Shown here: one piece after another, positions 2,177 to 41,028 of the stretch
How positions within the stretch are numbered: the first letter of the stretch is position 1
How the letters are laid out: every line of letters begins with the position of its first letter
Origin: Ostreococcus lucimarinus
Lineage: Eukaryota
Direction: 5' to 3' (one strand)
DNA length: 64,000 nucleotides
Assembly: GCA_000092065.1 (NCBI GenBank)
Contig: CP000592.1
The notes under the pieces: model-generated
The model's database searches: none
What the model saw: the letters and a program-made list of their open reading frames with translations, nothing else
Told to the model about the DNA's origin: nothing
Made by a program: the position numbers and the translations under genes

Positions 2177-4898
2177 TCAGTGTCTGTGGCAGACGTTGTA
2201 TTGAGCCAACGTTTGCAACATGTTGACCACGTCGTCGGTGTCGTCGAGATACGCAGGCGCCTTGCTCGGTTTTTGACCTATGGTTGATGTGTAAATGGAC
2301 GCGCCGGCGTAGAGCGGGAGCTGCGCGTGCGTGTTGACGGCGACGAACATGTCCTCGTCCGAACGGTCGTCGCCAACGGCGAGAACGAAATCGGCGACGT
2401 CAGCGGAAGATTGCGTGTCTAAAAGTTGGTTTATCACCAGACCTTTGTGCACGCCCTTGGGTTTGATCTCGACGGTGCCATTTCCGGCGATGACGTCCAC
2501 GGGGTCGCCGTGTAACACGCTCTCGAGGTGATCGAGAAGTTCCTTGGCTTGCCAAGCCCCAAAATCGGGATCGGCGTCTCGATAGTGCCACACGCAAGAA
2601 CTTTCTTTGGACTGGATGAACGAACCGTCCGTCGCTTCGGCATACTGCTCTAAAATTGGTAGGACGGTATCTTTCCACTCGAGCACGCTGTTGTCCGTGC
2701 CACTCGGAGCAAGCTCGTTCCACGCCACGTCTGATCCGCGGCGGAACCAGTATCCGTGCTCAGCCACCATGCAAAGACCAGGAATATTACCGAACCACTT
2801 GTCTAAAGTCTCGCGCTCGCGTCCAGACACGATACACACCTCGTTTGCGTCGTCATTTACGAGGACGGTGAGGAGGGACAATAAATGCGCCGTCGGCGGC
2901 TGCGCAAAGGATGCCAGTGGTACTAGCGTACCGTCGTAATCGATCACGAGCTTTCGACGAGTCGCCTTGAGGTAGTTGGCCACCACACCGGCCGTGTCGA
3001 GCTTTCGGAACGTCGAACTGAGATGCACGACACGGAAGTTCAACCCGAAACCCAAACCGTAGCATCGGTTGCTCTGAGCCTTCTCTGTCACGCGCTGAAG
3101 CTCGGCGAGGCAAGATTGCGCCCAGAAGCCGACGTGGTGCTCGCTAACGTAGCGCCAGTGCTTCTCATGACGAGCTTCATGCTCGTGACCGCTCATTTGA
3201 AGTGCTTTGTACATGGAATCCGCGACATCCTCTTCGTGCCACGGGTTGACGCGAAGCGCCCCTGAGAGCGACGGCGAACACCCGGTGAACTCAGAAATAA
3301 TCAAAGAGGATTGTCGTGGCAACGAGAAACCATCGGACGTGCCCTGGGACTCGTCATTCGGACCCTGTCTACAAGTTATGTACTCGTATGGCGCAAGGTT
3401 CATACCATCGCGCGTGGCCGTGACCACAGCGATGTCCGCGACTGAGTACAACGCGATGCGCTCGTGCAGCGGCACGGGCCTCACTTCAAACTTCACAACG
3501 TTGACACCATTCTTTGCATACTTGTCATTTATTCTCGCCACCATCGAATCCACGGTCGCTCGCAAATCATCAATGTCCCGCCCACTTCCGCGAGGTGGAT
3601 TACACACTTGATACAGCACAATTTGCTCGGCGATTTCTGGGTGTTCGTCGAGCATGCGTTCAAACGCCGCGATTTTCTGATCGATTCCCTTGAACTCGTC
3701 GAAATCATCGAGACCAAGCAACATTTTGCGCCCCGCAATTTCGGTGACGAGTTCTTTCCGACGATCCTTGCACATTTGTGCGTCTAAAACATCTCGCAAA
3801 CGCGACGTCTTCACGCCAGTGGGACAAATCTTAACCGACACGAGTCTGCCGAAGTTGTCGATGACGAGCGACCCGCGCTCCATCCTATGATTTAATCCGA
3901 GCAACCGCGTGCAGCACGACAAAAAGTGTCGAGCGTAATCGAACGTATGAAAACCGACAAAGTCGGCATTTAAAAGTCCGCGCAGGATTAAATCTCGGTT
4001 CGGCGTCGTTCTGAAGATTTCGCTCGACGGAAACGGGCAGTGCAAAAAGAAACCACACTTGACGGCGTTGAAGCGTTTACGCAGAAACGTCGGCAAAAGC
4101 ATCAAGTGGTAATCGTGCACCCACACTTGATCGTCATCACTGCACACCACTTCCATCAGCTTATCCGCGAAACGCTTATTCGCCGCGATGTACGCCTGCC
4201 ACTGATGTTTTTGAAATCGCGAATCCAACGGCGACATCGGCAAGACGTAGTGCATCAGAGGCCACAGATACTGTTTACAGAACCCCTTATAAAAGTTCTC
4301 CTTGGTATCTTCGGGCAAAAACACCGGCACCGCATCAAATCTCGCCTCTAAATCGTTCGCCACCGCCTCTTGCAACTCAAACGGCACTTGCATCGGCAAC
4401 TGTCCGACGTTTATCACCGCGTCGTACTGCCCGTTCGCCTCCGCTCCTTCCCGACATTGATCGTAAATGCTATCCCCATCCTTTTCGAACGCATACTTGT
4501 GTCCGTACGGTTTCCCCGCCTCCGCGTCCTCTCGCATCTTCAGCGGTAACGAATTACTGACGATGAAGACGCGTTCGACGCGCGGTTCGCTCGCCCCGCT
4601 CGCCCCGCTGAGATCGGCGCTCGACCCGCCGATCGTGTTCGGCTTCCCATCGTTCGCGTCCTCCCCGATCAGCGCTGTTCGTTTCGCAGACCACATCGCG
4701 CGCATCGTCAGTCCGTCGTTCTCGCGCGACGCCCGCGCGCGCGCGCGCCGCGAGCGCGTCTCGACCGCTCGAATCACCAAAAAACCCAAGACTCCGATTC
4801 CGCGTTTCGTCGCTTCGCGCGCGTCGATCGACGCCGCGCGCGCGATTCGCACCTTGTAAGTCCGTGACGGATGAGTTGTTATTCGCCGTGCGGCGCAT
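2177..4898 (-). CDS. TPS: Trehalose-6-phosphate synthase/phosphatase (class II TPS; GT20 synthase domain plus HAD phosphatase domain), probably two exons
   Basis: The 953-aa track ORF has a GT20 synthase domain (..WVHDYHLMLLPTFLRKRF..., LGLDDFDEFKGI) and a C-terminal TPP-like domain (KLVIDYDGTLVP...IVSGRERETL). The Arg-rich N-terminus of the track ORF is spurious. Proposed model: exon 1 at 4853-4898 (ATG CGC CGC ACG... encoding MRRTANNNSSVTDLQ), GTGCGA donor, intron 4675-4852 with ACTGAC 30 nt before the ACAG acceptor, exon 2 at 2177-4674 (ALIGEDANDGKPNTIGG...). The alternative intronless start is ATG at 4705. Confidence 0.8.
4675..4852 (-). other. Putative spliceosomal intron 1 of the TPS gene (178 nt)
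   Basis: Donor GTGCGA directly after exon 1 in phase 1. ACTGAC motif at 4712-4707, 30 nt upstream of AG (4676-4675). Splicing restores the TPS frame (G+CG gives Ala). Confidence 0.5.
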
Positions 4899-10435: not shown

Positions 10436-11516
10436 ATGGACAAGGTACGGCGCGCGCCGAGCGCGTCGAAGCGCACGTCTTCATCGACATCGCGCGCGTT
10501 CGCGATCGACTCGATCGACGCGCGCGACGCGCGCGACATCGACGCGACGCCCCGCATCGCGTAGGGTTTCGCGATCGACCACGACGCCGACGCGCGAAGA
10601 CTGACGCCGACGCGCGCGCGACGCACCCGCAGGTTATCGTCATCGACGCCAAGGGACACCTTTTCGGGCGATTGGCCTCGATCGTCTCCAAGCAGTTGTT
10701 GCAAGGCCAGCACGTGGTGCGTATCGATTTCGGCGACGCGCGCGCGTTCGCGTTGGGCGCGCGATCATCGCGTCGCGCGCGCGCACCGTGGAGGCGACGG
10801 AGCGCGACGCGATGGCGAGCGATGGATATGGTGGTATTCATGCGATGATTCGCGCGCGCGTTGGACGTCGACAAGACGCAGATGAGGCGCGGGACGATGG
10901 GATGTCGGTCGCATCGGTGGTGGCGGATTAGGGCTTTGACGCGCGAGACGCGCGAACGACGAACGCGAAGACTGACGAAAGCACGCGCGATGGTTTGCGT
11001 AACGAATAGGTTGTGGTTCGCACCGAGGGTATCTGCATGTCCGGTGGTATGGTTCGTCGTCGCATGGCGCACGACCGCTACAAGAACAAGAGGATGAACA
11101 CGAACCCGAAGAAGGGTCCGTACCACTACACGTCGCCGTCTCGACTCTTCTGGAAGACGGTTCGCGGTATGCTTCCGCACAAGACTGTGCGTGGTGCGGC
11201 TGCTTTCGAACGCTTCAAGGCGTACGAAGGCATCCCGGCGCCGTACGACAAGGTTAAGCGCGCGGTCGTTCCGGAAGCGCTCAAGGTGTTGCGCCTCGGT
11301 GAGGGGCACCGTTTCTGCGTGCTCGGCGACTTCTGCGAACAAATCGGGTGGAAGCATGGTGCGATCGTGAAGGAGCTCGAGGCGAAGCGCCAAACTGCGG
11401 CGTCTGAGTACTGGGCGCAGAAGAAGGAGGCTAACTCCAAGTTTGCCGCGGCCAAGGCTGCGGCGAATGCGCAACTCGGCGATTTGCAACAGTTGATCGA
11501 AGCCACCGGGTATTAG
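10436..11516 (+). CDS. RPL13A: 60S ribosomal protein L13a (uL13), three exons
   Basis: Exon 1 at 10436-10444 (ATG GAC AAG, donor GTACGG). Intron 1 at 10445-10632 (ACTGAC at 10600-10605, acceptor CGCAG). Exon 2 at 10633-10716 ([28 protein letters not shown]). Intron 2 at 10717-11009 (donor GTGCGT, ACTGAC at 10970-10975, acceptor AATAG). Exon 3 at 11010-11516 (VVVRTEGICMSGG...RMNTNPKKGPYHYTSPSRLFWKTVRGMLPHKTVRG...). The spliced protein, [38 protein letters not shown]..., matches the eukaryotic uL13 N-terminus residue for residue, including the four consecutive Val. Confidence 0.85.
10445..10632 (+). other. RPL13a intron 1 (188 nt)
   Basis: GTACGG donor directly after ATGGACAAG. ACTGAC 25 nt before the CAG acceptor. 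Phase 0. Confidence 0.65.
10717..11009 (+). other. RPL13a intron 2 (293 nt)
   Basis: GTGCGT donor after ...CAC GTG. ACTGAC 32 nt before the ATAG acceptor. Joins HV to VVVRTEG in frame. Confidence 0.7.
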
Positions 11517-22239: not shown

Positions 22240-22812
22240 ATGGCGCTCCGACGCGCGGGCGCGGCGCTCGCGCGACCGCTCGGGCGCGGATACGCATCGT
22301 GCGTGCGCGCGCGATCGACGCGCGCGACCGCGGACGCGCGCGCGCGCTTCGACGACGCGCGAGGGCGAACGCGCGCGGAAACCTCGCGCGCGCGCGGCGT
22401 TCGACGACGACGCGCGCGAGCGCGCGAGCGACGCGACGACGCGACTGACGAGCGCGCGCGGTGATGACGCGTCGCGCGCAGGATCTCGGTGACGGTGATG
22501 CGCGACGGCGTGCGCGCGACGATCGACGCGCGCGAGGGCGAGACGCTGGCGAGCGCGTTGGCGCGAGACGCGACGATGAAATCCGCGGTGCCGGTGATGA
22601 GCATCGATCGAGGACCGGACGCGCACGTCGTGATTCCCGATGCATTCTTGAAGCGGCTCCCGGCGCTGGACGCGCTGGAGATGGATAAACTAGAGGACGT
22701 CGCGGCGGGGTTGGGCGCGAATTCGCGCCTGGCGAGTCAGGTGACGCTGACCAAGGAGGTCGACGGATTAGTCGCGGCGATCGCGAAAGTGTACCCCGAG
22801 AACCCGATGTAA
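22240..22812 (+). CDS. Adrenodoxin-fold (2Fe-2S ferredoxin-like) protein lacking all four cluster-ligating cysteines, two exons, with a mitochondrial-type presequence; possible complex I ferredoxin-like (C1-FDX-type) subunit
   Basis: Exon 2 (22481-22812) encodes ISVTVMRDGVRATIDAREGETLASALARDATMKSAVPVMSIDRGPDAHVVIPDAFLKRLPALDALEMDKLEDVAAGLGANSRLASQVTLTKEVDGLVAAIAKVYPENPM*. This aligns with vertebrate-type adrenodoxin ([29 protein letters not shown]...CEGTLACSTCHLIF...LDKLP...E.DMLD.A..L...SRLGCQI.LT.ELDG). The CxxxxxCxxC loop and the final Cys are replaced (RLGCQ becomes RLASQ). An in-frame stop lies just upstream (tga tga at 22462-22467), so the protein needs a 5' exon. Exon 1 at 22240-22298 (ATG...MALRRAGAALARPLGRGYA, phase 2) ends at a GTGCGT donor. 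Intron at 22299-22480 has ACTGAC 29 nt before the GCGCAG acceptor, and the TC+G junction gives Ser. Confidence 0.55.
22299..22480 (+). other. Intron of the ferredoxin-like gene (182 nt)
   Basis: GTGCGT donor. ACTGAC at 22444-22449. Acceptor GCGCAG at 22475-22480. Phase-2 junction restores the adrenodoxin-fold frame. Confidence 0.5.
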
Positions 22813-33392: not shown

Positions 33393-33694
33393 CGTCCGTC
33401 GCCTCGCGCGCGCCTCGCCGCGCCGCGCGTCTTCTGCGCGCGCGACGCGTCAGAGATCGTCGATCGCCGCGTAGGTTTGGAATCGGCGTCTGGAGCGCGA
33501 TTCGCGCCGCGCTCGACCTCGCGCGTCGCGCGCGACCGCCGCGGCGTCGCGACGCGATATCGACGCGCCTCCGCGACGCCTCCGCGACGCGCTGTCGACG
33601 CGCGCGACGGACGACGCGTCGATGAGTGCGGCGATCGACGCGCGCGGCGTCGACAGACGACGACGCGCGAGGCGCGTCTCGCGGCGCGGCGCGC

Positions 33695-35242
33695 ATGGCG
33701 GACGCGGCGACGCGCGCGGGCGCGTCGGCGAGCGCGTCGGCGAGCGCGAGCGCGCGCGACGCGCGAGCGCGCGACGGCGGCGCGCTGCGATGCGAGTTTC
33801 GAGTGATGCGACTGCGCGCGCCGGCGTACGAACACGCGGGCGCGCGCGAGGGACGCGCGATCGACGACGGAGACGACGGTGACGACGCGCGCGCGACGCG
33901 CGGCGCGCGAGCGAGCGGCGCGGACGCGGACGCGGACGCGGGACGGAACGACGACGACGACGCGCGGCGACGACGCGAACGCGAGACGACGAGCGGCGAG
34001 CTGACGCTGCCGCAATCGTTCGGCGCCGTCGCGCTGGGCGAACGGTTTAGCTCGTTCGTGACGTTTGGGAATTTTTCAGAGCCGACGAGCGGGGCGAGCG
34101 GGACGGCGCGGGAGATCGGGATCAAGGTGGAGCTGCAGACGGAGACGCGGCGAACGACGCTGCGAGACGGGACGAAGACGCCGATTGAGACGCTGCGACC
34201 GGGGGAGAAGGTGGATTTGATCGTCACGAAGGATTTGAAAGAGCTCGGCGCGCACACGCTGGTGTGCTCGGCGACGTATTACGACGCCGCGGGGGAGCGG
34301 AAGTATTCGCCGCAGTATTTCAAGTTCAACGTGGCGAATCCGCTGAGCGTGCGAACGAAGGTTCGCGCGGCGCCGCGCGGGCGCGCGTTTCTCGAGGTGT
34401 GCATCGAAAATACGACGAGGTATGCGTTGTTGCTCGATAGCGCGCGCTTCGATACGGTGGATGGGATCTTGGCGAAGGACATGACGCCAGAATTCGGCGG
34501 CGCCGCGGCGACGCTCCACGGCGTCGACGACTCCCCGGACGCCGGTTTACCTTCGCTCGGTAAGCGCGCGGTGTATCGCCTCGATCCATCGACCGGGGCT
34601 GCGCACTATCTTTTCGAAATCACGCGCGCGAACGCGAGCGAGGAACCGCTGACGCCGCAGACACAGCTCGGAAAACTCGAGCTCCGCTGGCGCGGCGCCA
34701 TGGGCGATCCCGGCCGGTTGCAGACGCAAGTCATCACCGCCGGCAGCGCGGGATCGACCGCTCCCTCCCCGGTCGCGGCGAAGATGCGTCAGTCGATCAT
34801 CGTCCACCCACGACCGCCCGACGCCGAGGACGTGAGCACGGTGTACGCGGAAACGCCGTTCATCCTGCGCGCCGCCGTCGAGGCCCTCGCGCCCATCAAA
34901 GCCGACGCCTGCGTCGTCCGCGTCAAAGATGTCGTCTCCGGCGTCTACATCGACGGTCCGCGCGCGGTGCGCGTCGGCGCTTTATCCCCTGGACAAACCG
35001 TCAACGTCGACATTCCGTGCGTCGCGCTCGGCTTGGGCGTCCAAACGTGCCCGTCCCTCGTCCTCTGCGACGCCGTCGACGACGCCGCGCGCGCGGCGCC
35101 CGCGCCGTTGGAAGTCTTCTCCGTCATCCCGCCCCCGTCCGTCGTCCTCGACGCGCTCAAACGCGTCGAAACCATCGACGTCGCGTCGCCGCCCGTCGAC
35201 GTCGCGCCGTCGCTCGACGCACCGATCGACTCGCTTTTGTAA
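33695..35242 (+). CDS. TRAPPC13: Trafficking protein particle complex subunit 13 (TRAPPC13/DUF974)
   Basis: LRCEFRVMRL.., ELTLPQSFGAVALGERFSSFVTFGNFS, and AHTLVCSATYYDAAGERKYSPQYFKFNVANPLSVRTKV parallel human TRAPPC13 ([75 protein letters not shown]). ATG at 33695. There is a poly-Asp/Gly insert. Confidence 0.7.
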   Translation: MADAATRAGASASASASASARDARARDGGALRCEFRVMRLRAPAYEHAGAREGRAIDDGDDGDDARATRGARASGADADADAGRNDDDDARRRRERETTSGELTLPQSFGAVALGERFSSFVTFGNFSEPTSGASGTAREIGIKVELQTETRRTTLRDGTKTPIETLRPGEKVDLIVTKDLKELGAHTLVCSATYYDAAGERKYSPQYFKFNVANPLSVRTKVRAAPRGRAFLEVCIENTTRYALLLDSARFDTVDGILAKDMTPEFGGAAATLHGVDDSPDAGLPSLGKRAVYRLDPSTGAAHYLFEITRANASEEPLTPQTQLGKLELRWRGAMGDPGRLQTQVITAGSAGSTAPSPVAAKMRQSIIVHPRPPDAEDVSTVYAETPFILRAAVEALAPIKADACVVRVKDVVSGVYIDGPRAVRVGALSPGQTVNVDIPCVALGLGVQTCPSLVLCDAVDDAARAAPAPLEVFSVIPPPSVVLDALKRVETIDVASPPVDVAPSLDAPIDSLL

Positions 35243-35288
35243 AATACGCCGCCGCCTCGCCGCCGCCGCACACATCGTCGCGCCGCGC

Positions 35289-36197
35289 ATGCTCTGCGCG
35301 CGTTCGCCCGCGAGCGTCCCCCGCGTCGTCTCCCGCGCCTTCTCCGCGCCCCGTCGCGCGTCGACGCGCGACGCGCGACGCTCCAGCGCGCGTTTCCTCG
35401 CGCGCGCGTCCGCCGTTCCCCCGGCGCGCGAACGCGTCGCGTCGCTCGAATCTCGCGCGACGACGCGCGCGATGGCGCCGCGCGCGCCCGCGAGATCGCG
35501 ATCGCGATCGTCCGCGCGCGCGAGGGCGTCGAGCGGCGGCGCGGACGACGCGGCGGCGCGGTACGGGTTGGCGAACGCGGAGCGCGGCGTCGCGCTGCGG
35601 TGGCTCCCGACGTTTTTGACGCTCCTGCGCGTCGCCGCGGTGCCGCTGCTCGCGGCGGTGTATTACAGCGATCTGGCGAACGCGGCGCCGATCGCGGGGA
35701 CGATGTTCATCGGCGCCGCGATCACGGATTGGTTGGACGGATACCTGGCGAGACGGTTGAAGGCGAGCAGCGCGTTCGGCGCGTTTTTGGATCCGGTGGC
35801 CGATAAGCTCATGGTCGCCGCGTCCCTGTGCCTGCTGTGCACGCACGCGCCGCGAGGCGTCGCGGCGTGGGCGGTGGCGGTGCCGTCGATCGTCATCATC
35901 GGACGCGAGATCACCATGAGCGCGCTGCGAGAGTGGTGCGCGGCGAAGGGCGGCGAGGCGCACGCCGCCGTCAAGGTGAATAATCTCGGTAAATACAAGA
36001 CGGCGACGCAAATGGTGGCGCTGAGCGTGTTATTACTCGTCAGAGACGGGTCGGACTTCTTCGCGAACGGGGCGCACGATGCTTTGTTGGTGCGAGGGGG
36101 CGTGTGGTGCCTCTGGATCTCCGCCGCGTTGGCTTTGATTTCGTTGTGGGTCTACATGAGCGGCGTCATCGGAATCATGCTCAAATCCGATGATTAA
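35289..36197 (+). CDS. PGPS: CDP-diacylglycerol--glycerol-3-phosphate 3-phosphatidyltransferase (PGP synthase, CDP-alcohol phosphatidyltransferase family) with an organellar presequence
   Basis: LPTFLTLLRVAAVPLLAAVYY...GTMFIGAAITDWLDGYLARRLKASSAFGAFLDPVADKLMVAASL (D(x)2DG(x)2AR...G(x)3D(x)3D motif). The proposed start is ATG at 35289 (MLCARSPASVPRVVSRAF...). The track ORF start overlaps TRAPPC13. Confidence 0.7.
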   Translation: MLCARSPASVPRVVSRAFSAPRRASTRDARRSSARFLARASAVPPARERVASLESRATTRAMAPRAPARSRSRSSARARASSGGADDAAARYGLANAERGVALRWLPTFLTLLRVAAVPLLAAVYYSDLANAAPIAGTMFIGAAITDWLDGYLARRLKASSAFGAFLDPVADKLMVAASLCLLCTHAPRGVAAWAVAVPSIVIIGREITMSALREWCAAKGGEAHAAVKVNNLGKYKTATQMVALSVLLLVRDGSDFFANGAHDALLVRGGVWCLWISAALALISLWVYMSGVIGIMLKSDD

Positions 36198-36313: not shown

Positions 36314-38329
36314 TCACCCTTGTTCCATTTTCTGCGAGAGAATCTTGAAGCGTTCTTCGGCGGCGACTCTTTCGCGCAACTCTTTCGCGCCTTGACGATC
36401 GGGGTGGAAGCGCAACAACGCTTTCCTGTACGCGCTACGTAGTTGCTTCGCGTTCGCGTGCGCGCCACCTTCGACCGCGACGCCGAAACACTCGAGAGTC
36501 TCCGCCAAATTTAACGAAGCCACCTTCGTCTCCCATTCTCGTCTAAATTCTTCCCTAATTGAGTCGGTGCTTTGCTCTTCTTCGTGTCGACTCTCCCGCG
36601 CTTCCCGAAACGTCGCGACTCTACTTTCAGCGGCTTTGATCAAATCTTCAGCCGCCTTTGCTTTTTGCTCTTCTCGCCGCCGGCGTTGCGCTTGCGATTG
36701 CTCCTCTTGCTCCGCAGCCTTGATAAGCGCTTGTGCGTCGATTTCCTCCCGCCGCCGCGCAAGAATCGCGCCAACGGCATCGCTGACGATCCATTTCTTA
36801 CTCACGAGCATGTTGAACACTTCTTGTAGCAAAACAGGCTCCCCCAAGCCGCGCGAGTGCGCCGCGTCGTCTTCCAACACCGCCCCGAGAGCGTTGCAGA
36901 GCAGATTGGCGCGCTCGGAACCGTTTTCAGCCAGCTTGAACGCGGTTTGCGCGCTCTTTAACGCTACTCCATGCGCAATCGCAATGGCCGATATCAATTC
37001 CGCGTTTGAATCGTCCAAGAACTCTGTTTCCTCTTCTCTCGCAGACGTCGGCGCCGCCGCCGCCTGCGACTGCGTGCCCCGGGCGAACGACACTAAATCG
37101 TCGATGGATGAGTTCGACCCCGTTGCGAGCGGCGATTTCGGAAGCTTTTCTAGCGGCGACTTGCCCTTGTCTGCGCGCATACTCGACATGGTCGGCTCTT
37201 TTCGCGAGTGCGTGTACGTGTACGGAGGCGGTGTCGGCGGCGCACCGTCGAAGTCTGGTTCGGAGCACGGTTTCAGCGTTCCCGGACACAGCATCAAATC
37301 TACCCACATGTCAGATCCTTCCTCGGCGAAAATAACGCGAGCCGAATTTCTCCCACAGTAGTACTCCCCACGAACTAATCGACACGGCACGCCCGCGCTC
37401 GCCGCTAAAGTTTTGAACAAAATCGCTCGATGGCGTTCGACTCCCTTGGATAAATGCCCGACATGCAGACAACATCCCGACTGACTGCTCGCGTTCAACA
37501 GCTGCTCGCGATCCTCCGCCGTCGCGAGCACAAGGGTTGGATCGTCGATGGTCTTCACGGACCCGCCCAAACGATCGCTCACCAATCTGGCCAGCGCAGC
37601 GCACCGGGCCCGTACGTTCGGCACCTGCGAGCACGTCTCCCGCGCCAACTCGTCGAGCGCGTTCAAAAACATATCCGTGCGCCTGTCCACGACGAAAACT
37701 TCCTCCGTCGCCGTGACCGGTGGCCTCTTGAGCAGATCTCCGAGCGCGGGCAATTGTCCATCCACTGAACTCTCGAACGCGTCGCCCCAGACGTCGTAAA
37801 ACCCGTCGCACGTCTCATCCAAGACTTCGTCCGCGTCGAGCGCTTGCGAGATCCAAAACTTTGACGCCAAGCTTTGCCCCTTACCCCGTCCTTTTCCCGC
37901 GGCATCCGCGGCATCAAATTCCAGCTCCACCGCCAGCACATCCGCGCTCGTCTCTTTCGTGCTCGCCTCGAGCGCGAACTGCATTTCGCGCGCGTCGAAG
38001 CCATCCGTTCGCGCGCGCGCCGAAGCCGTCGCGCGCGCAGCCGTCCCGCCCGCGTCCAGCGCGTCCACTTGGTACATCGCCGACGCCGCCTCGTCCGTCG
38101 ACATCGGCGGCGCCGCGCGCATCGCGTTGACGGTAAACGGCGCGCCCGCGCCATCGCCGCGCTCTTTTCGTCGTTTCAGTCGCGCTGCGTCGCGACGTTT
38201 GCGATTGATTACGTCAGTCCTCTGGTGGTTAAAAGTTGACCGAACGCGCGTCGTCGCGTCGTCGCGCGCGTCGAGCGCGCGTCGAGCGCGTCGAGCGCTC
38301 CGAGACGTACACTTTATCGATTTGAGCAT
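36314..38329 (-). CDS. Protein with an EDR1/CTR1-N-type domain, a possible UBA/CUE-like helical region and a C-terminal DnaJ (J) domain; probably two exons
   Basis: EDR1-N-like: DGFYDVWGDAF...SGCCLHVGHLSKGVERHRAILFKTLAASAGVPCRLVRGEYYCG...VDLMLCPGTLKP (compare CTR1/EDR1 N-terminal [26 protein letters not shown]...VDLMGDPGTL). C-terminal J domain: NAKQLRSAYRKALLRFHPDRQG. Proposed exon 1 at 38311-38329 (ATGCTCAAATCGATAAAGT, MLKSIK), donor GTACGT, intron at 38185-38310 with ACTGAC 25 nt before the GCAG acceptor, exon 2 from 38184. The intron removes an Arg-rich stretch. The unspliced reading is also open. Confidence 0.55.
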   Translation of the reverse strand: MLKSIKCTSRSARRARRALDARDDATTRVRSTFNHQRTDVINRKRRDAARLKRRKERGDGAGAPFTVNAMRAAPPMSTDEAASAMYQVDALDAGGTAARATASARARTDGFDAREMQFALEASTKETSADVLAVELEFDAADAAGKGRGKGQSLASKFWISQALDADEVLDETCDGFYDVWGDAFESSVDGQLPALGDLLKRPPVTATEEVFVVDRRTDMFLNALDELARETCSQVPNVRARCAALARLVSDRLGGSVKTIDDPTLVLATAEDREQLLNASSQSGCCLHVGHLSKGVERHRAILFKTLAASAGVPCRLVRGEYYCGRNSARVIFAEEGSDMWVDLMLCPGTLKPCSEPDFDGAPPTPPPYTYTHSRKEPTMSSMRADKGKSPLEKLPKSPLATGSNSSIDDLVSFARGTQSQAAAAPTSAREEETEFLDDSNAELISAIAIAHGVALKSAQTAFKLAENGSERANLLCNALGAVLEDDAAHSRGLGEPVLLQEVFNMLVSKKWIVSDAVGAILARRREEIDAQALIKAAEQEEQSQAQRRRREEQKAKAAEDLIKAAESRVATFREARESRHEEEQSTDSIREEFRREWETKVASLNLAETLECFGVAVEGGAHANAKQLRSAYRKALLRFHPDRQGAKELRERVAAEERFKILSQKMEQG
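38185..38310 (-). other. Putative 5' intron of the EDR1-N/J-domain gene (126 nt)
   Basis: GTACGT donor. ACTGAC at 38217-38212. GCAG acceptor at 38188-38185. Phase 1. Confidence 0.4.
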
Positions 38330-38464: not shown

Positions 38465-38479
38465 CTAGATTAAAGACGA

Positions 38480-38518
<39 letters not shown>

Positions 38519-39184
38519 GGGCGCCGGCGTCGGCGCGCCGCCCGCGCTCGCCGACGACTTGGCCACGCACAACCACCCCAGAAACACGTACATCAACATC
38601 ACCGGATACACCGCCAGCGCCCTTCTCGACGCCGGCATCGCCGCGCTCACGAACGGCACGCTCGCTTTACTGCTCCACGTCACCGCCGCCGCGACGACGA
38701 TGAATCTGTACACCTTATTCTCGCTCGCCAGGCACAGCGCGCTCGCCAGGCACAGCGGCACCACGCAGTACCCCAACAGCGCCACGCTCTGCAAGAATAT
38801 GATCTTCCCGCCCAGCAACAGCACGTTCGCCGTCAGCGCCACCGCGCCGAGCCCGACCGTCGCGAAGACGACGCTGAACGTCTCGCTCGCGTTCGCCGCG
38901 CCGCCGCTCAGCGTCGCGCTCAGCGTCAGCACGAACGCCAGCGGTCCCCACAGGTCCCACTCTCGCAGCCGCGTCGCGCCGTTCGCCCCCCAGTTCATCG
39001 GCAGCAGCACCGCCGCGCAGTTTCGCCGCACCACGGCGCAATCGCGCCTGACGGTGGCCCAAATCGTTTCATCCAGCGTCCCGAACGCGAGATCGCTCGT
39101 CTCGCTCGCGCCCACGCGCGCGCGCTCGATCTCGTGCTCGCGCGACGCGAACAGCGGCACCGCGTCGCCGAGCGCGCCGTTCAT
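38465..39184 (-). CDS. Yip1-domain (YIPF) Golgi membrane protein
   Basis: ...LREWDLWGPLAFVLTLSATL... followed by multiple TM helices, the typical Yip1 family core. ATG at 39184. The C-terminal tail (PTPAPAPTPTPTPTPTP) is encoded by a (GGCGTC)n microsatellite at about 38478-38535. Confidence 0.7.
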
Positions 39185-39327: not shown

Positions 39328-41028
39328 ATGTTCGCGACCGCGCGCGCGCCCGGCGCGGCGGCCGGCGCGGCGACGCGCGCGACGCGACGGGGAAATCAAC
39401 GCGAGGGCGCGACGACGCGCGCGGCGACGACGACGACGCGACGCGCGATGCGCGTGCGCGCGCGCGCGGCGTGCAAACTGACCACGTCCGTCATCGCGCC
39501 GAACCTGGAGCTCGCGCTGCGGGACGTGGACGACGCCGTGAGGAAGGGCGCGGACGTCGTGGAGCTCAGGGTGGATTTCTTGCGCGACGACGCGGCGCGC
39601 GGGACGCTGGGCGACGCGATCGAAGCGCTGATTAAAGCGTCGCCGGTGCCGGTGATCGTGACGAATCGACCGACTTGGGAGGGAGGGCAAGATGATGGGG
39701 ACGAGAGCGCGCGGTTGGAGGCGCTTTGGAGGGCGCACGAGTGCGGGGCGGCGTACGTGGATTGCGAGGCGCTCGCGGCGGAGCGATTCTTCGCGGCGAA
39801 ACCGGCGACGGCGACGCTGAGGAATGGGAAGACTAAGATCATTTTGAGCTCGCATAATTACGATGAGACGCCGAACGATGAGATTTTGGCGGAGATTCAC
39901 GCGAAGTGCGTGCGCTTGGGGGCGGATATCGTCAAGATGGCGTCGGTGTGTAACGCGGTGGAGGACGTGGCGCGATTGGAGAAGCTCTTGCGCACGAAGG
40001 GAAGGGAGATCGAGACGATCGTTTTGGGCATGAGCGAGCACGGACAAGTGTCTCGATTGCTCGCGGCGAAGTTTGGAAGCTTTTTGACGTTCGGGGCGAT
40101 TCGAAGAGGGGAAGAGAGCGCACCGGGGCAGCCGTTGCTCGAAGAGCTGCGAGATTTGTATCGCGTGCCGACGCAGACGGCGGCGACAAAGGTGATGGGC
40201 GTGATCGGGAACCCGATCGGACACAGTAAGTCACCGGCGTTACACAATCCTTGTCTCGCCGCCGCGGGCGTGGATGCGTGCTACGTCCCGTTACTCGTCA
40301 AGGATATCAAAACCTTTCTCGCGTCGCCGCTCTTCGGGTCGAAGGACTTTGTGGGGTTTAGCGTGACGATTCCGCATAAGGAAGACGCCTTGGAGTGCTG
40401 CGCCGAGGTCGACCCCGTGGCGAAGCAAATCGGCGCGGTGAACACGTTGGTTCGTCAACCGGATGGATCGTTAAAGGGTTACAACACCGATTATGTCGCC
40501 GCGATCGAGGCTATCGAAAACGCGATGGAGAAGAAAACGGGCGTCGCCGCCGCGAAGTCCTTGGCTGGGAAAACAGTCGTCGTCATCGGCGCCGGCGGTG
40601 CGGGCAAGGCTTTGGCGTTCGGCGCTAAGTTTAAGGGCGCCAACGTCGTCATCGCCAATCGCAGCGTCGAGCGCGCACAGGCGCTCGCTGACGCGTGCGG
40701 CGGCGTCGCGGTGTCGCTCGAAGATTTAGCGAGCGGTAGCGTCGTCGGCGACGTCTTGGCCAATAGCACCTCGGTCGGGATGCAACCGAACGTTGAAGAC
40801 ACGCCGACGCCAGCGTCTGTACTCGGAGGGTTTTCCGTCGTCTTCGACGCGGTGTACACCCCGCTCGAGACGCGGCTCTTGCGCGAAGCCAAGGCGAGTG
40901 GGTGCGAAATCGCGAGCGGGCTGGACATGTTCGTCGGGCAAGCGGCGAGGCAGTTCGAGCTCTTCACCGGGAAAGAGGCCGAGGTTGAGCTCATGCGCGA
41001 CGCCGTGTTGTCGAGCATAAAAAGGTAA
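39328..41028 (+). CDS. DHQ-SDH: Bifunctional 3-dehydroquinate dehydratase / shikimate 5-dehydrogenase (plant-type DHQ-SDH) with a plastid transit peptide
   Basis: Type I DHQase region (VVELRVDFL..., PVIVTNRPTWEGG..., IILSSHNY) followed by the SDH region (KVMGVIGNPIGHSKSPALHN...GAGGAGKALAFGA). 566 aa. ATG at 39328. Confidence 0.9.
   Translation: MFATARAPGAAAGAATRATRRGNQREGATTRAATTTTRRAMRVRARAACKLTTSVIAPNLELALRDVDDAVRKGADVVELRVDFLRDDAARGTLGDAIEALIKASPVPVIVTNRPTWEGGQDDGDESARLEALWRAHECGAAYVDCEALAAERFFAAKPATATLRNGKTKIILSSHNYDETPNDEILAEIHAKCVRLGADIVKMASVCNAVEDVARLEKLLRTKGREIETIVLGMSEHGQVSRLLAAKFGSFLTFGAIRRGEESAPGQPLLEELRDLYRVPTQTAATKVMGVIGNPIGHSKSPALHNPCLAAAGVDACYVPLLVKDIKTFLASPLFGSKDFVGFSVTIPHKEDALECCAEVDPVAKQIGAVNTLVRQPDGSLKGYNTDYVAAIEAIENAMEKKTGVAAAKSLAGKTVVVIGAGGAGKALAFGAKFKGANVVIANRSVERAQALADACGGVAVSLEDLASGSVVGDVLANSTSVGMQPNVEDTPTPASVLGGFSVVFDAVYTPLETRLLREAKASGCEIASGLDMFVGQAARQFELFTGKEAEVELMRDAVLSSIKR

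What the first reader, a model, noticed from the sequence alone, without database searches (positions are those of the whole stretch)
36314..38329. EDR1/CTR1 N-terminal domain fused to a C-terminal J domain, with no kinase domain
The EDR1-N domain (normally the regulatory N-terminus of Raf-like CTR1/EDR1 kinases) is followed by a helical region, a Glu/Lys-rich coiled coil and a DnaJ domain with an HPD motif (LRFHPDRQG). This suggests an Hsp70-recruiting adaptor built on a CTR1-like scaffold, an architecture I do not recognise from land plants. A probable 5' intron (38185-38310) follows the shared pattern.
Basis: partly seen in the sequence, partly recalled or inferred. Interest (0 to 1): 0.5.

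Follow-up and report, generated by a model that had tools for sequence, protein, structure and literature searches.

The report
Kinase-less EDR1–UBA–J-domain co-chaperone gene
A small marine green alga (Ostreococcus) has a real, conserved gene that joins the regulatory domain of plant CTR1/EDR1 kinases, here without any kinase and without its enzyme residues, to a ubiquitin-associated-like domain and an Hsp70-recruiting J domain; the combination is uncharacterised and was traced only to early-branching green algae.

Summary
The minus-strand ORF 36314-38329 matches PF14381 (EDR1/CTR1/ARMC3 peptidase-like, E 1.4e-51). It ends in a J domain with an invariant HPD motif. This protein scores just below the Pfam cut-off for DnaJ, but a family profile hits only J domains in the PDB (best 1.7e-9). 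There is no kinase domain and no room for one.

The proposed 5' intron (38185-38310) is supported. Five diverged syntenic orthologues keep the same 19-nt mini-exon. Their introns are not multiples of three and must be spliced to restore the frame. The mature protein is therefore 629 aa, a model absent from the 15-billion-sequence public protein collection searched.

Two additions:
- The "helical region" is a UBA-like pair.
- The EDR1-like domain lacks the Cys and His of the transglutaminase-like triad, so it is probably a binding scaffold.

The architecture recurs in Pyramimonas transcripts, in Pycnococcus/Pseudoscourfieldia and in unassigned marine metagenome proteins. Land-plant proteins share only the coil plus J module.

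Best reading: a class-C J-protein that brings Hsp70 to partners bound by the pseudo-peptidase and UBA-like modules. The function is inferred, not shown. It is a new variant of a known kind, of moderate interest.

The parts
38311..38329 (-). Exon 1: ATG plus 16 nt (MLKSIK and the first base of a Ser codon)
   Evidence: The same mini-exon, ATG[CT]TCAAA..., encoding M[LF]K[ST][IL][KR], is present in L001, L007, L008, L009, L010 and L011.
38185..38310 (-). Phase-1 intron, 126 nt: GTACGT ... GGACTGACG (branch-site-like) ... CGCAG
   Evidence: Orthologous introns are 130, 136, 64, 89 and 133 nt, none a multiple of 3. The unspliced reading hits stop codons, and splicing restores the frame into the conserved body. 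The same splice signals occur in the uL13-like gene of this window.
36314..38184 (-). Exon 2, running to the TGA stop at 36314-36316. The spliced product is 629 aa.
   Evidence: The ORF is continuous and aligns with orthologues without frame breaks. dN/dS against L001 is 0.16 overall.
37916..38005 (-). Conserved acidic and helical motif (DGFDAxE..ALEASTKETSA..L..ELEF), aa 109-138. It resembles a UIM by eye only.
   Evidence: F111, A119, L120, A122, S123, S128, L132 and L136 are invariant or nearly so. The Pfam UIM model does not match it.
37274..37876 (-). EDR1/CTR1/ARMC3 peptidase-like domain (PF14381), aa 152-352
   Evidence: Pfam E 1.4e-51. dN/dS is 0.11.
37436..37438 (-). Glu298 codon, at the position of the transglutaminase-like nucleophile Cys (G-x-C-R-H-R-A)
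   Evidence: Alignment A7: this column is E here and in close orthologues, P/T/Q in distant EDR1+J proteins, A in a CTR1-like kinase, and C in P0106, P0080 and P0161. The His of GHAW in P0161 has no counterpart here. Asp344 is invariant.
37022..37273 (-). Pro/Ser-rich linker (aa 353-436) with conserved short motifs PPTPPPY, DKGKSPL and SSIDDLVxFA
   Evidence: T366, G389, K390, P392, S408 and D411 are invariant; L412, F415 and A416 are nearly invariant. The AlphaFold2 model has low confidence here.
36743..37021 (-). UBA-like pair (five helices), aa 437-529
36518..36754 (-). Long Glu/Lys/Arg-rich helix (aa 526-604): a coiled coil or a single-helix spacer
   Evidence: AlphaFold2 predicts one uninterrupted helix, residues 446-535 of the 602-aa model, with pLDDT 70-88. 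It is the least constrained segment, with dN/dS 0.46.
36317..36514 (-). C-terminal J domain (helices I-III, no helix IV), aa 606-671; HPD at 36398-36406
   Evidence: The model shows helices at 539-545, 558-572 and 582-601 of the 602-aa numbering. dN/dS is 0.09, the lowest of all segments.

Best explanation
This is one two-exon Ostreococcus gene (exon 1 38311-38329, intron 38185-38310, exon 2 36314-38184) encoding a 629-aa class-C (type III) J-domain protein.

Domain order, N to C:
- a short conserved basic N-terminus;
- an acidic helical motif;
- an EDR1/CTR1/ARMC3-type transglutaminase-like domain that has lost its Cys and His catalytic residues and therefore acts as a binding scaffold;
- a proline-rich linker;
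- a UBA-like pair;
- a roughly 80-residue charged helix;
- a C-terminal J domain with an intact HPD motif.

Proposed mechanism:
1. The pseudo-peptidase and UBA-like modules bind a partner or client. This may be ubiquitylated and may sit at a membrane.
2. The long helix acts as a spacer or dimeriser.
3. The J domain docks onto ATP-bound cytosolic Hsp70 and triggers ATP hydrolysis, so that Hsp70 clamps onto the bound client.

Shown here: the gene structure, the domains, their conservation and purifying selection, the loss of catalytic residues, and the taxonomic spread. Inferred: Hsp70 recruitment, ubiquitin binding, the identity of the client, and membrane association.
For: **Domains**
- PF14381 at E 1.4e-51.
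- J domain with invariant HPD in all 14 aligned family members. A family profile hits only J domains among the PDB matches listed (best 1.7e-9). The J segment has the lowest dN/dS of all segments, 0.09.

**Catalytic residues**
- The nucleophile column is Glu and is variable across the family, and the His is absent. P0161 shows what an intact triad looks like in this domain family.

**Single gene**
- Conserved synteny (Yip1 upstream, CDP-alcohol phosphatidyltransferase and TRAPPC13 downstream) in L001, L004, L005, L007-L011.
- Complete transcript-derived ORFs with the same architecture in Pyramimonas.

**Intron**
-.

**Class C assignment**
- Pfam finds no Gly/Phe-rich region and no zinc-finger region.
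Against: - This protein's own DnaJ score (23.9 bits) is below Pfam's gathering score (27.8). The domain lacks helix IV.
- The window protein's own UBA-like segment gives no Pfam hit. Foldseek matches to UBA structures are not significant, with best E 0.7. A UBA fold does not prove ubiquitin binding; EF-Ts and TAP have the same fold.
- The AlphaFold2 model of the EDR1-like domain was poor, with pLDDT below 50. The loss of the triad therefore rests on sequence alignment only.
- There is no expression, interaction or localisation data.
- One recent preprint reports plant J-proteins whose J domain is dispensable for function (10.64898/2026.09.14.751395). An intact HPD is therefore suggestive rather than conclusive.
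Confidence: 0.55

Rival explanations
1. The protein is a scaffold with a vestigial J-like domain. The C-terminal helices keep an HPD tripeptide but no longer work with Hsp70. The protein acts through its EDR1-like and UBA-like modules alone, for example as an adaptor in a ubiquitin or signalling pathway.
For: - The Pfam score is below the gathering threshold, and only profile positions 11-48 of 63 are matched.
- Helix IV is missing.
- There is a precedent: plant J-proteins whose J domain is dispensable.
Against: - HPD(R) is invariant from Ostreococcus to Pyramimonas, Pycnococcus and the land-plant coil+J proteins.
- The J segment is the most constrained part of the gene, with dN/dS 0.09.
- Helices II and III, which carry the Hsp70-contacting surface (my own knowledge of the DnaJ-DnaK complex 5NRO), align well with DNAJB8, Sis1, Ydj1 and DnaJ.
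Confidence: 0.15
2. The EDR1-like domain is an active enzyme: a peptidase, deubiquitinase or transglutaminase-like protein. The UBA-like pair feeds it ubiquitylated substrates, and Hsp70 unfolds or releases them.
For: - PF14381 belongs to the papain-like/transglutaminase-like superfamily and resembles the C71 and C93 peptidases (PMC10318531).
- Some PF14381 proteins keep a full Cys-His-Asp signature, for example P0161.
- Asp344 is invariant.
Against: - The nucleophile column is Glu in this protein and its close orthologues.
- The same column is Ser, Pro, Thr or Gln, or Ala in the other EDR1+J proteins, so no nucleophile is conserved.
- The His column is empty.
Confidence: 0.1
3. This is an annotation or assembly artefact: two neighbouring genes (an EDR1-domain gene and a small J-protein gene) read as one ORF, or a long chance ORF in GC-rich DNA.
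For: GC-rich DNA in this window gives many long spurious ORFs on both strands.
Against: - There is no stop codon over 2016 nt.
- dN/dS is 0.09-0.46 in every segment.
- The full-length architecture is kept in independent assemblies and in transcript-derived ORFs of other classes of green algae.
Confidence: 0.02
4. The upstream ATG and intron are not used. Translation starts at Met70 (38122) or Met85, and 38185-38310 is simply 5' UTR.
For: - Public gene models start at Met70, giving 602 aa.
- In this window the intron is a multiple of 3, so this sequence alone cannot decide.
- No transcript evidence was available; all Logan contigs examined were genomic.
Against: - The mini-exon peptide M[LF]K[ST][IL][KR] and the residues after the acceptor ([SA][RK]L...) are conserved in seven loci.
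- The intervening sequence varies in length (64-136 nt) and in sequence, and breaks the frame in five loci.
- Substitutions inside the putative intron between the window and L001 are mostly non-synonymous in the read-through frame.
Confidence: 0.12

Closest known systems
CTR1 / EDR1 and related group-B Raf-like MAPKKKs of plants and algae
   Same: They share the N-terminal PF14381 domain, with the same RHRALLFK...PCRLV(K/R)G...VDL(M) core. Like the CTR1-type kinase P0082, this protein lacks the nucleophile Cys.
   Different: There is no kinase domain. A UBA-like pair, a charged helix and a J domain take its place. It is not a member of the kinase family.
EDR1+J proteins of other prasinophytes: Pycnococcus provasolii XRA98889.1 and Pseudoscourfieldia marina XRB14387.1 ('chaperone protein dnaJ'), Pyramimonas MMETSP1081 CAMPEP_0196589928
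   Same: The order is the same: PF14381, then a UBA-like region, then a C-terminal HPD J domain. These are true, uncharacterised family members.
   Different: They are only 27-32% identical overall. N-termini differ: MGxxxS in the Pycnococcus type against MLKSIK here. The residue at the nucleophile position also differs.
Land-plant 'Chaperone DnaJ-domain superfamily protein' with a C-terminal coil plus J module (e.g. Rhynchospora pubera KAJ4760112.1, P0163)
   Same: The C-terminal module matches specifically (about 90-97 bits, E 1e-20 to 1e-22). It comprises a charged helix, then ...LRGLG(I/V).V.GG.....(V/I)(K/R).AY(K/R).ALL.FHPDR....(V).AEE.FK.I, ending right after helix III.
   Different: The land-plant proteins have no PF14381 domain. 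They carry long acidic, low-complexity N-terminal regions instead. Their function, and a possible link to the Arabidopsis SUVH-interacting J-proteins (the SDJ/DNAJ1-3 group), was not established here.
DNAJB2 (HSJ1), the mammalian J-protein with ubiquitin-interacting motifs (my own knowledge)
   Same: It works in a similar way: a J domain combined with ubiquitin-binding elements couples Hsp70 to ubiquitylated clients.
   Different: In HSJ1 the J domain is N-terminal, the protein is class B with a Gly/Phe-rich region, and ubiquitin is bound by UIMs rather than a UBA-like pair. It has no PF14381 domain. It is an analogue, not a relative.
Auxilin / yeast Swa2p (my own knowledge; auxilin J-domain structures 1nz6 and 2qwo appear among weak hits)
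   Same: Both are class-C J-proteins with the J domain at the extreme C-terminus, acting as a dedicated Hsp70 recruiter. Swa2p also carries a UBA domain.
   Different: No clathrin-binding, PTEN-like or TPR regions were found by Pfam. Canonical DnaJ-type J domains score better than auxilin.
ARMC3 (animal armadillo-repeat protein with a C-terminal PF14381 domain)
   Same: It is another kinase-less protein that carries the EDR1-type domain (Pfam family name; PMC10318531).
   Different: It has armadillo repeats in place of the UBA-like and J modules, and the domain order is different.

Membership tests
J-domain proteins (Hsp40 co-chaperones), class C | HPD tripeptide in the loop between helices II and III | tested here: met
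   H642-P643-D644 is invariant in all 14 aligned members. It is also present in the distant members and the land-plant relatives.
J-domain proteins (Hsp40 co-chaperones), class C | Significant match to the J-domain profile | tested here: inconclusive
   This protein scores 23.9 bits against a gathering score of 27.8. Relatives P0055, P0047 and P0050 pass the cut-off. The family profile against the PDB hits J-domain proteins only among the matches listed, best at 1.7e-9.
J-domain proteins (Hsp40 co-chaperones), class C | Four-helix J fold | tested here: inconclusive
   Helices I-III are predicted with pLDDT about 80-85. The protein ends 9 residues after the FK of helix III, so helix IV is absent.
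J-domain proteins (Hsp40 co-chaperones), class C | No Gly/Phe-rich region or zinc-finger domain (the absence that defines class C) | tested here: met
   Pfam finds only PF14381 and DnaJ.
J-domain proteins (Hsp40 co-chaperones), class C | Stimulates Hsp70 ATPase | not testable with these tools
   This needs biochemistry.
CTR1/EDR1 Raf-like MAPKKK | N-terminal PF14381 domain | tested here: met
   E 1.4e-51.
CTR1/EDR1 Raf-like MAPKKK | C-terminal Ser/Thr (Raf-like) kinase domain | tested here: not met
   There is no kinase hit. The stop codon lies 116 nt from the neighbouring gene. Kinase-bearing relatives P0082 and P0106 show what a positive looks like.
Transglutaminase-like / papain-like cysteine peptidases | Cys-His-Asp catalytic triad | tested here: not met
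   The Cys column is Glu298, the His column is empty, and only Asp344 is kept. The comparison is with P0161, which has GVCRHRA...GHAW...VVD.
Transglutaminase-like / papain-like cysteine peptidases | Transglutaminase-core fold | tested here: inconclusive
   The Pfam Transglut_core match is weak (E 0.027). The AlphaFold2 model of this region has pLDDT below 50. The superfamily assignment comes from PMC10318531.
UBA / UBA-like domains | Compact three-helix bundle | tested here: met
UBA / UBA-like domains | Profile match to UBA families | tested here: inconclusive
   The window's own segment gives no Pfam hit. Five of 13 aligned relatives hit UBA_4, best 9.5e-10. The family profile hits the TNK1 UBA domain at 0.0014. 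Foldseek is not significant.
UBA / UBA-like domains | Binds ubiquitin or a ubiquitin-like protein | not testable with these tools
   The loop after helix 1 reads HGV, as in the TNK1 UBA domain, rather than the classical MGF/MGY. Binding must be measured.
UIM (ubiquitin-interacting motif) | Match to the e-e-x-Phi-x-x-A-x-x-x-S-x-x-e motif model | tested here: not met
   The Pfam UIM model gives no hit for REMQFALEASTKE. There was only a 0.12 hit in one distant relative.

The most novel reading that the evidence does not exclude
The EDR1/CTR1 N-terminal domain was originally a kinase-independent recognition module of the ubiquitin/proteostasis system. This prasinophyte protein would then preserve that role as an Hsp70-coupled receptor or extractor for ubiquitylated, possibly membrane-associated, clients. 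Characterising it would reveal what the long-enigmatic regulatory domain of CTR1 and EDR1 actually binds.
Probability: 0.2. Interest if true: 0.6.

Novelty: new variant of a known kind. Interest (0 to 1): 0.4.

Why it matters
The N-terminal domain of CTR1 (ethylene signalling) and EDR1 (disease resistance) is conserved from algae to animals (ARMC3), but its molecular role is poorly defined.

This protein offers a natural experiment. The domain occurs without a kinase and is wired to a UBA-like module and an Hsp70-recruiting J domain. It sits in one of the smallest free-living eukaryotic genomes, in a genus for which, to my knowledge, O. tauri can be genetically transformed. That points to a proteostasis or ubiquitin context for the domain and gives a tractable system to test it.

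There are practical corrections too:
- The gene model should be a two-exon gene with a 629-aa product.
- The C-terminal coil plus J module has specific, uncharacterised relatives in land plants.

Tried and rejected
- **UIM upstream of the EDR1 domain.** It is plausible by eye, but Pfam does not support it.
- **Whole-protein AlphaFold2 model.** Mean pLDDT was 54.6 and the EDR1 part was unusable. Foldseek on that model gave nothing significant.
- **Solved structure of a PF14381 domain.** None was found by sequence.
- **Word-indexed homologue searches.** They returned few or fragmentary hits. They gave no names for the P0041-P0043 clade, so the taxonomy of that branch stays unknown.
- **Intron as a repeated 'introner' element.** BLAST of the intron against the window found only short GC-rich low-complexity matches, so this was rejected.
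- **Transcript evidence for splicing.** The Logan contigs examined were all genomic.
- **Literature.** No paper mentions an EDR1+DnaJ architecture.
- **Link to Arabidopsis SDJ/DNAJ1-3.** I could not verify a link between the land-plant coil+J proteins and this group. The PKL-associated JDPs are a different, N-terminal-J family.
- **Merged-gene artefact.** Rejected; see the rival explanations.
Full report
**Observation**

The minus strand carries a 671-codon ORF at 36314-38329.

Pfam finds two domains:
- PF14381 (EDR1/CTR1/ARMC3, peptidase-like) at aa 152-352, E 1.4e-51, covering almost the whole profile.
- PF00226 (DnaJ) at aa 624-666, E 4.5e-5. Its 23.9 bits are below the 27.8-bit gathering score, and only profile positions 11-48 of 63 are covered.

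The motif LRFHPDRQG is in the sequence; the HPD codons are 36398-36406. No kinase domain is found. The stop codon lies 116 nt from the end of the convergent neighbouring gene, so no kinase exon can follow.

**Organism and orthologues**

The neighbouring dehydroquinase/shikimate dehydrogenase gene falls in the same 90%-identity cluster as Ostreococcus lucimarinus CCE9901 XP_001420686.1. The window is therefore from that species or a very close relative.

A word-indexed search found 13 relatives of about 600 aa in marine metagenomes, 32-100% identical. These were aligned as A1. The locus is syntenic in L001, L004, L005 and L007-L011, with Yip1 upstream and CDP-alcohol phosphatidyltransferase and TRAPPC13 downstream.

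Against the 93%-identical orthologue L001, dN/dS is 0.16 overall:

| Segment | dN/dS |
|---|---|
| J domain | 0.09 |
| EDR1-like domain | 0.11 |
| UBA-like region | 0.15 |
| Charged helix | 0.46 |

The locus is a real, selected, single gene.

**The J domain**

- All 14 members of A1 hit Pfam DnaJ, best E 2.3e-7.
- H642, P643, D644 and R645 are invariant.
- A profile of the C-terminal 65-74 residues (A4) hits 79 PDB sequences. All 60 listed are J-domain proteins: DNAJB8 at 1.7e-9, then a Plasmodium type II Hsp40, Sis1, Ydj1, DnaJ and others.
- The AlphaFold2 model shows helices I, II and III, and the protein ends there. Helix IV is missing.
- Distant relatives pass Pfam's gathering score.

I take this as a genuine but short J domain. 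By my own knowledge of the DnaJ-DnaK complex, helices II and III and the HPD loop form the Hsp70-contacting surface.

**The 5' intron**

The segment 38185-38310 reads GTACGT...GGACTGACG...CGCAG. It is 126 nt long and lies after the 19th nucleotide of the CDS. Because 126 is a multiple of 3, this window alone cannot decide whether it is spliced.

Orthologous loci decide it. L007, L008, L009, L010 and L011 all carry the same mini-exon, ATGTTCAAA..., encoding MFK[ST][IL][KR]. Each is followed by GT[AG]CG...CAG introns of 130, 136, 64, 89 and 133 nt. None of these is a multiple of 3, and the unspliced frames run into stop codons.

Splicing restores the frame into a conserved continuation:
- MLKSIKSRLKRRK... 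(this window)
- MFKTLKSRLKRHK...
- MFKSIRSRLRGRK...
- MFKSIKAKLSRAP...
- MFKSIKSKLQRAT...
- MFKSIRSRLSARR...

The same splice signals flank a 9-nt mini-exon of a uL13-like ribosomal protein gene in this window at 10445-10632.

The mature product is therefore 629 aa. That exact sequence is absent from the 15-billion-sequence collection. Public models are either 602 aa, starting at Met70, or 671 aa, unspliced. I found no transcript evidence: the Logan contigs examined are genomic.

**The 'helical region' is UBA-like**

- The relative P0043 has a Pfam UBA_4 hit between its EDR1 and J domains (6.4e-7).
- I aligned the corresponding region of 13 family members (A6). Five hit UBA_4 (best 9.5e-10) and three hit UBA_8. 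Single members hit UBA, UBA_HOIP, CUE and UBA_ARI1.
- The window protein's own segment gives no Pfam hit.
- The A6 profile hits the TNK1 UBA domain (7tcy) at E 0.0014, aligned across both halves.
- An AlphaFold2 model of the 93-residue segment is confident: pLDDT 89.5, pTM 0.79, five helices.
- Foldseek finds nothing significant, although almost all top hits are UBA-type: HOIP double UBA, UBAP1 SOUBA, TNK1, EF-Ts and USP5.

The fold-level assignment is reasonable. Ubiquitin binding is an inference.

**The EDR1-like domain is not a catalytic peptidase here**

PF14381 is classed with transglutaminase-like/papain-like peptidases, close to families C71 and C93 (PMC10318531). One family member, P0161, shows a full signature: GVCRHRA...GHAW...VVD.

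In alignment A7 the columns compare as follows:

| Catalytic position | This protein and close orthologues | Other proteins |
|---|---|---|
| Cys | Glu (E298) | Pro, Thr or Gln in other EDR1+J proteins (Ser and Ala in two more); Ala in a CTR1-like kinase; Cys in P0106, P0080 and P0161 |
| His | no counterpart | His in P0161 |
| Asp | Asp (D344) | invariant |

The AlphaFold2 model of this region was too poor to add anything. I conclude that the domain is a pseudo-enzyme used for binding, as it appears to be in CTR1-type kinases.

**Distribution**

An exhaustive HMMER search of 1.84 billion representatives with the family profile gave 1372 hits at E up to 0.001.

Among the best 150, proteins with both PF14381 and a C-terminal J domain are P0041-P0045, P0047, P0050 and P0055. 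Those that can be assigned are:
- Pyramimonas (MMETSP1081 transcript).
- Pycnococcus provasolii and Pseudoscourfieldia marina, annotated 'chaperone protein dnaJ'.

The other PF14381 hits that I scanned with Pfam (P0082, P0106) are EDR1+kinase proteins.

A separate group of land-plant proteins matches only the charged helix plus J module, at about 90-97 bits. An example is Rhynchospora KAJ4760112.1, 'Chaperone DnaJ-domain superfamily protein'. These proteins also end right after helix III.

So the full architecture was traced only to prasinophyte-grade green algae, and its C-terminal module has specific land-plant relatives. No paper describing the architecture was found.

**Mechanism**

The best-supported reading is a class-C J-protein.
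1. The pseudo-peptidase and UBA-like modules select a partner or client.
2. The roughly 80-residue charged helix spaces or dimerises.
3. The C-terminal J domain recruits and activates cytosolic Hsp70.

Functional analogues, from my own knowledge, are DNAJB2/HSJ1 (J domain plus UIMs) and Swa2p/auxilin (UBA plus C-terminal J domain). It is a member of neither family, and it is not a CTR1/EDR1 kinase.

A possible membrane context rests on two hints only. The N-terminus here is conserved and basic, and distant relatives begin with MGxxxS, which resembles an N-myristoylation site.

**Rivals**
- A vestigial J domain.
- An active enzyme using a non-canonical nucleophile.
- Translation from Met70 without splicing.
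- A merged-gene artefact (effectively excluded).

**Verdict**

It is refined in four ways: a UBA-like pair, a dead catalytic site, a J domain without helix IV, and a confirmed intron. It is an uncharacterised variant of a known kind, a specialised J-domain co-chaperone. Interest is moderate, mainly for what it may say about the EDR1/CTR1 N-terminal domain.

Noticed in passing
window 10436-10716 (+), intron 10445-10632: A uL13/RPL13A-like gene starts with a 9-nt mini-exon (ATGGACAAG). An intron GTACGG...GACTGACG...CAG of 188 nt follows, then exon 2 encoding VIVIDAKGHLFGRLASIVSKQLL. A second intron seems to start near 10717. This is the same 5'-proximal intron pattern as in the finding.
   Followed up: partly
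window 22299-22481 (+) and 4675-4852 (-): These are further candidate introns with GT[AG]CG...GACTGACG...CAG signals. Each is preceded by a short ATG-initiated exon that stays open when spliced.
   Followed up: no
window about 38483-38530 (-), within the Yip1-like gene 38465-39184: A (GCCGAC)n hexanucleotide repeat encodes the (Pro-Thr)n C-terminal tail of the upstream Yip1-domain protein. The stop codon of that gene (38465-38467) lies about 135 nt from the ATG of the gene studied.
   Followed up: no
window 39328-41028 (+): This bifunctional dehydroquinase/shikimate dehydrogenase gene is in the same 90% cluster as Ostreococcus lucimarinus XP_001420686.1. That public model is 526 aa, against the 566-aa ORF here. 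This is what identifies the organism.
   Followed up: partly
P0041, P0050 (same cluster as Pycnococcus XRA98889.1), P0055: These distant EDR1+J proteins begin with MGxxxS (MGGAAS, MGAAPS, M-MGGGAS). This resembles an N-myristoylation consensus and suggests membrane anchoring in those lineages.
   Followed up: no
P0161 (representative hit, 358 aa): A PF14381-type domain keeps a complete transglutaminase-like signature (GVCRHRA...GHAW...VVDVM). Some members of the 'EDR1' family may therefore be active enzymes.
   Followed up: partly
window 36314-38329 (-), public gene models: Public models of this gene are 602 aa (starting at Met70; sources NCBI/ENA/Logan) or 671 aa (unspliced; JGI). The spliced 629-aa product is in none of them.
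   Followed up: yes
window 33626-36197 (+): The listed ORFs of the TRAPPC13-like gene (33626-35242) and the CDP-alcohol phosphatidyltransferase gene (34929-36197) overlap by about 300 nt. In related contigs the transferase is called as about 200-300 aa, so its true start is probably well downstream of 34929.
   Followed up: no
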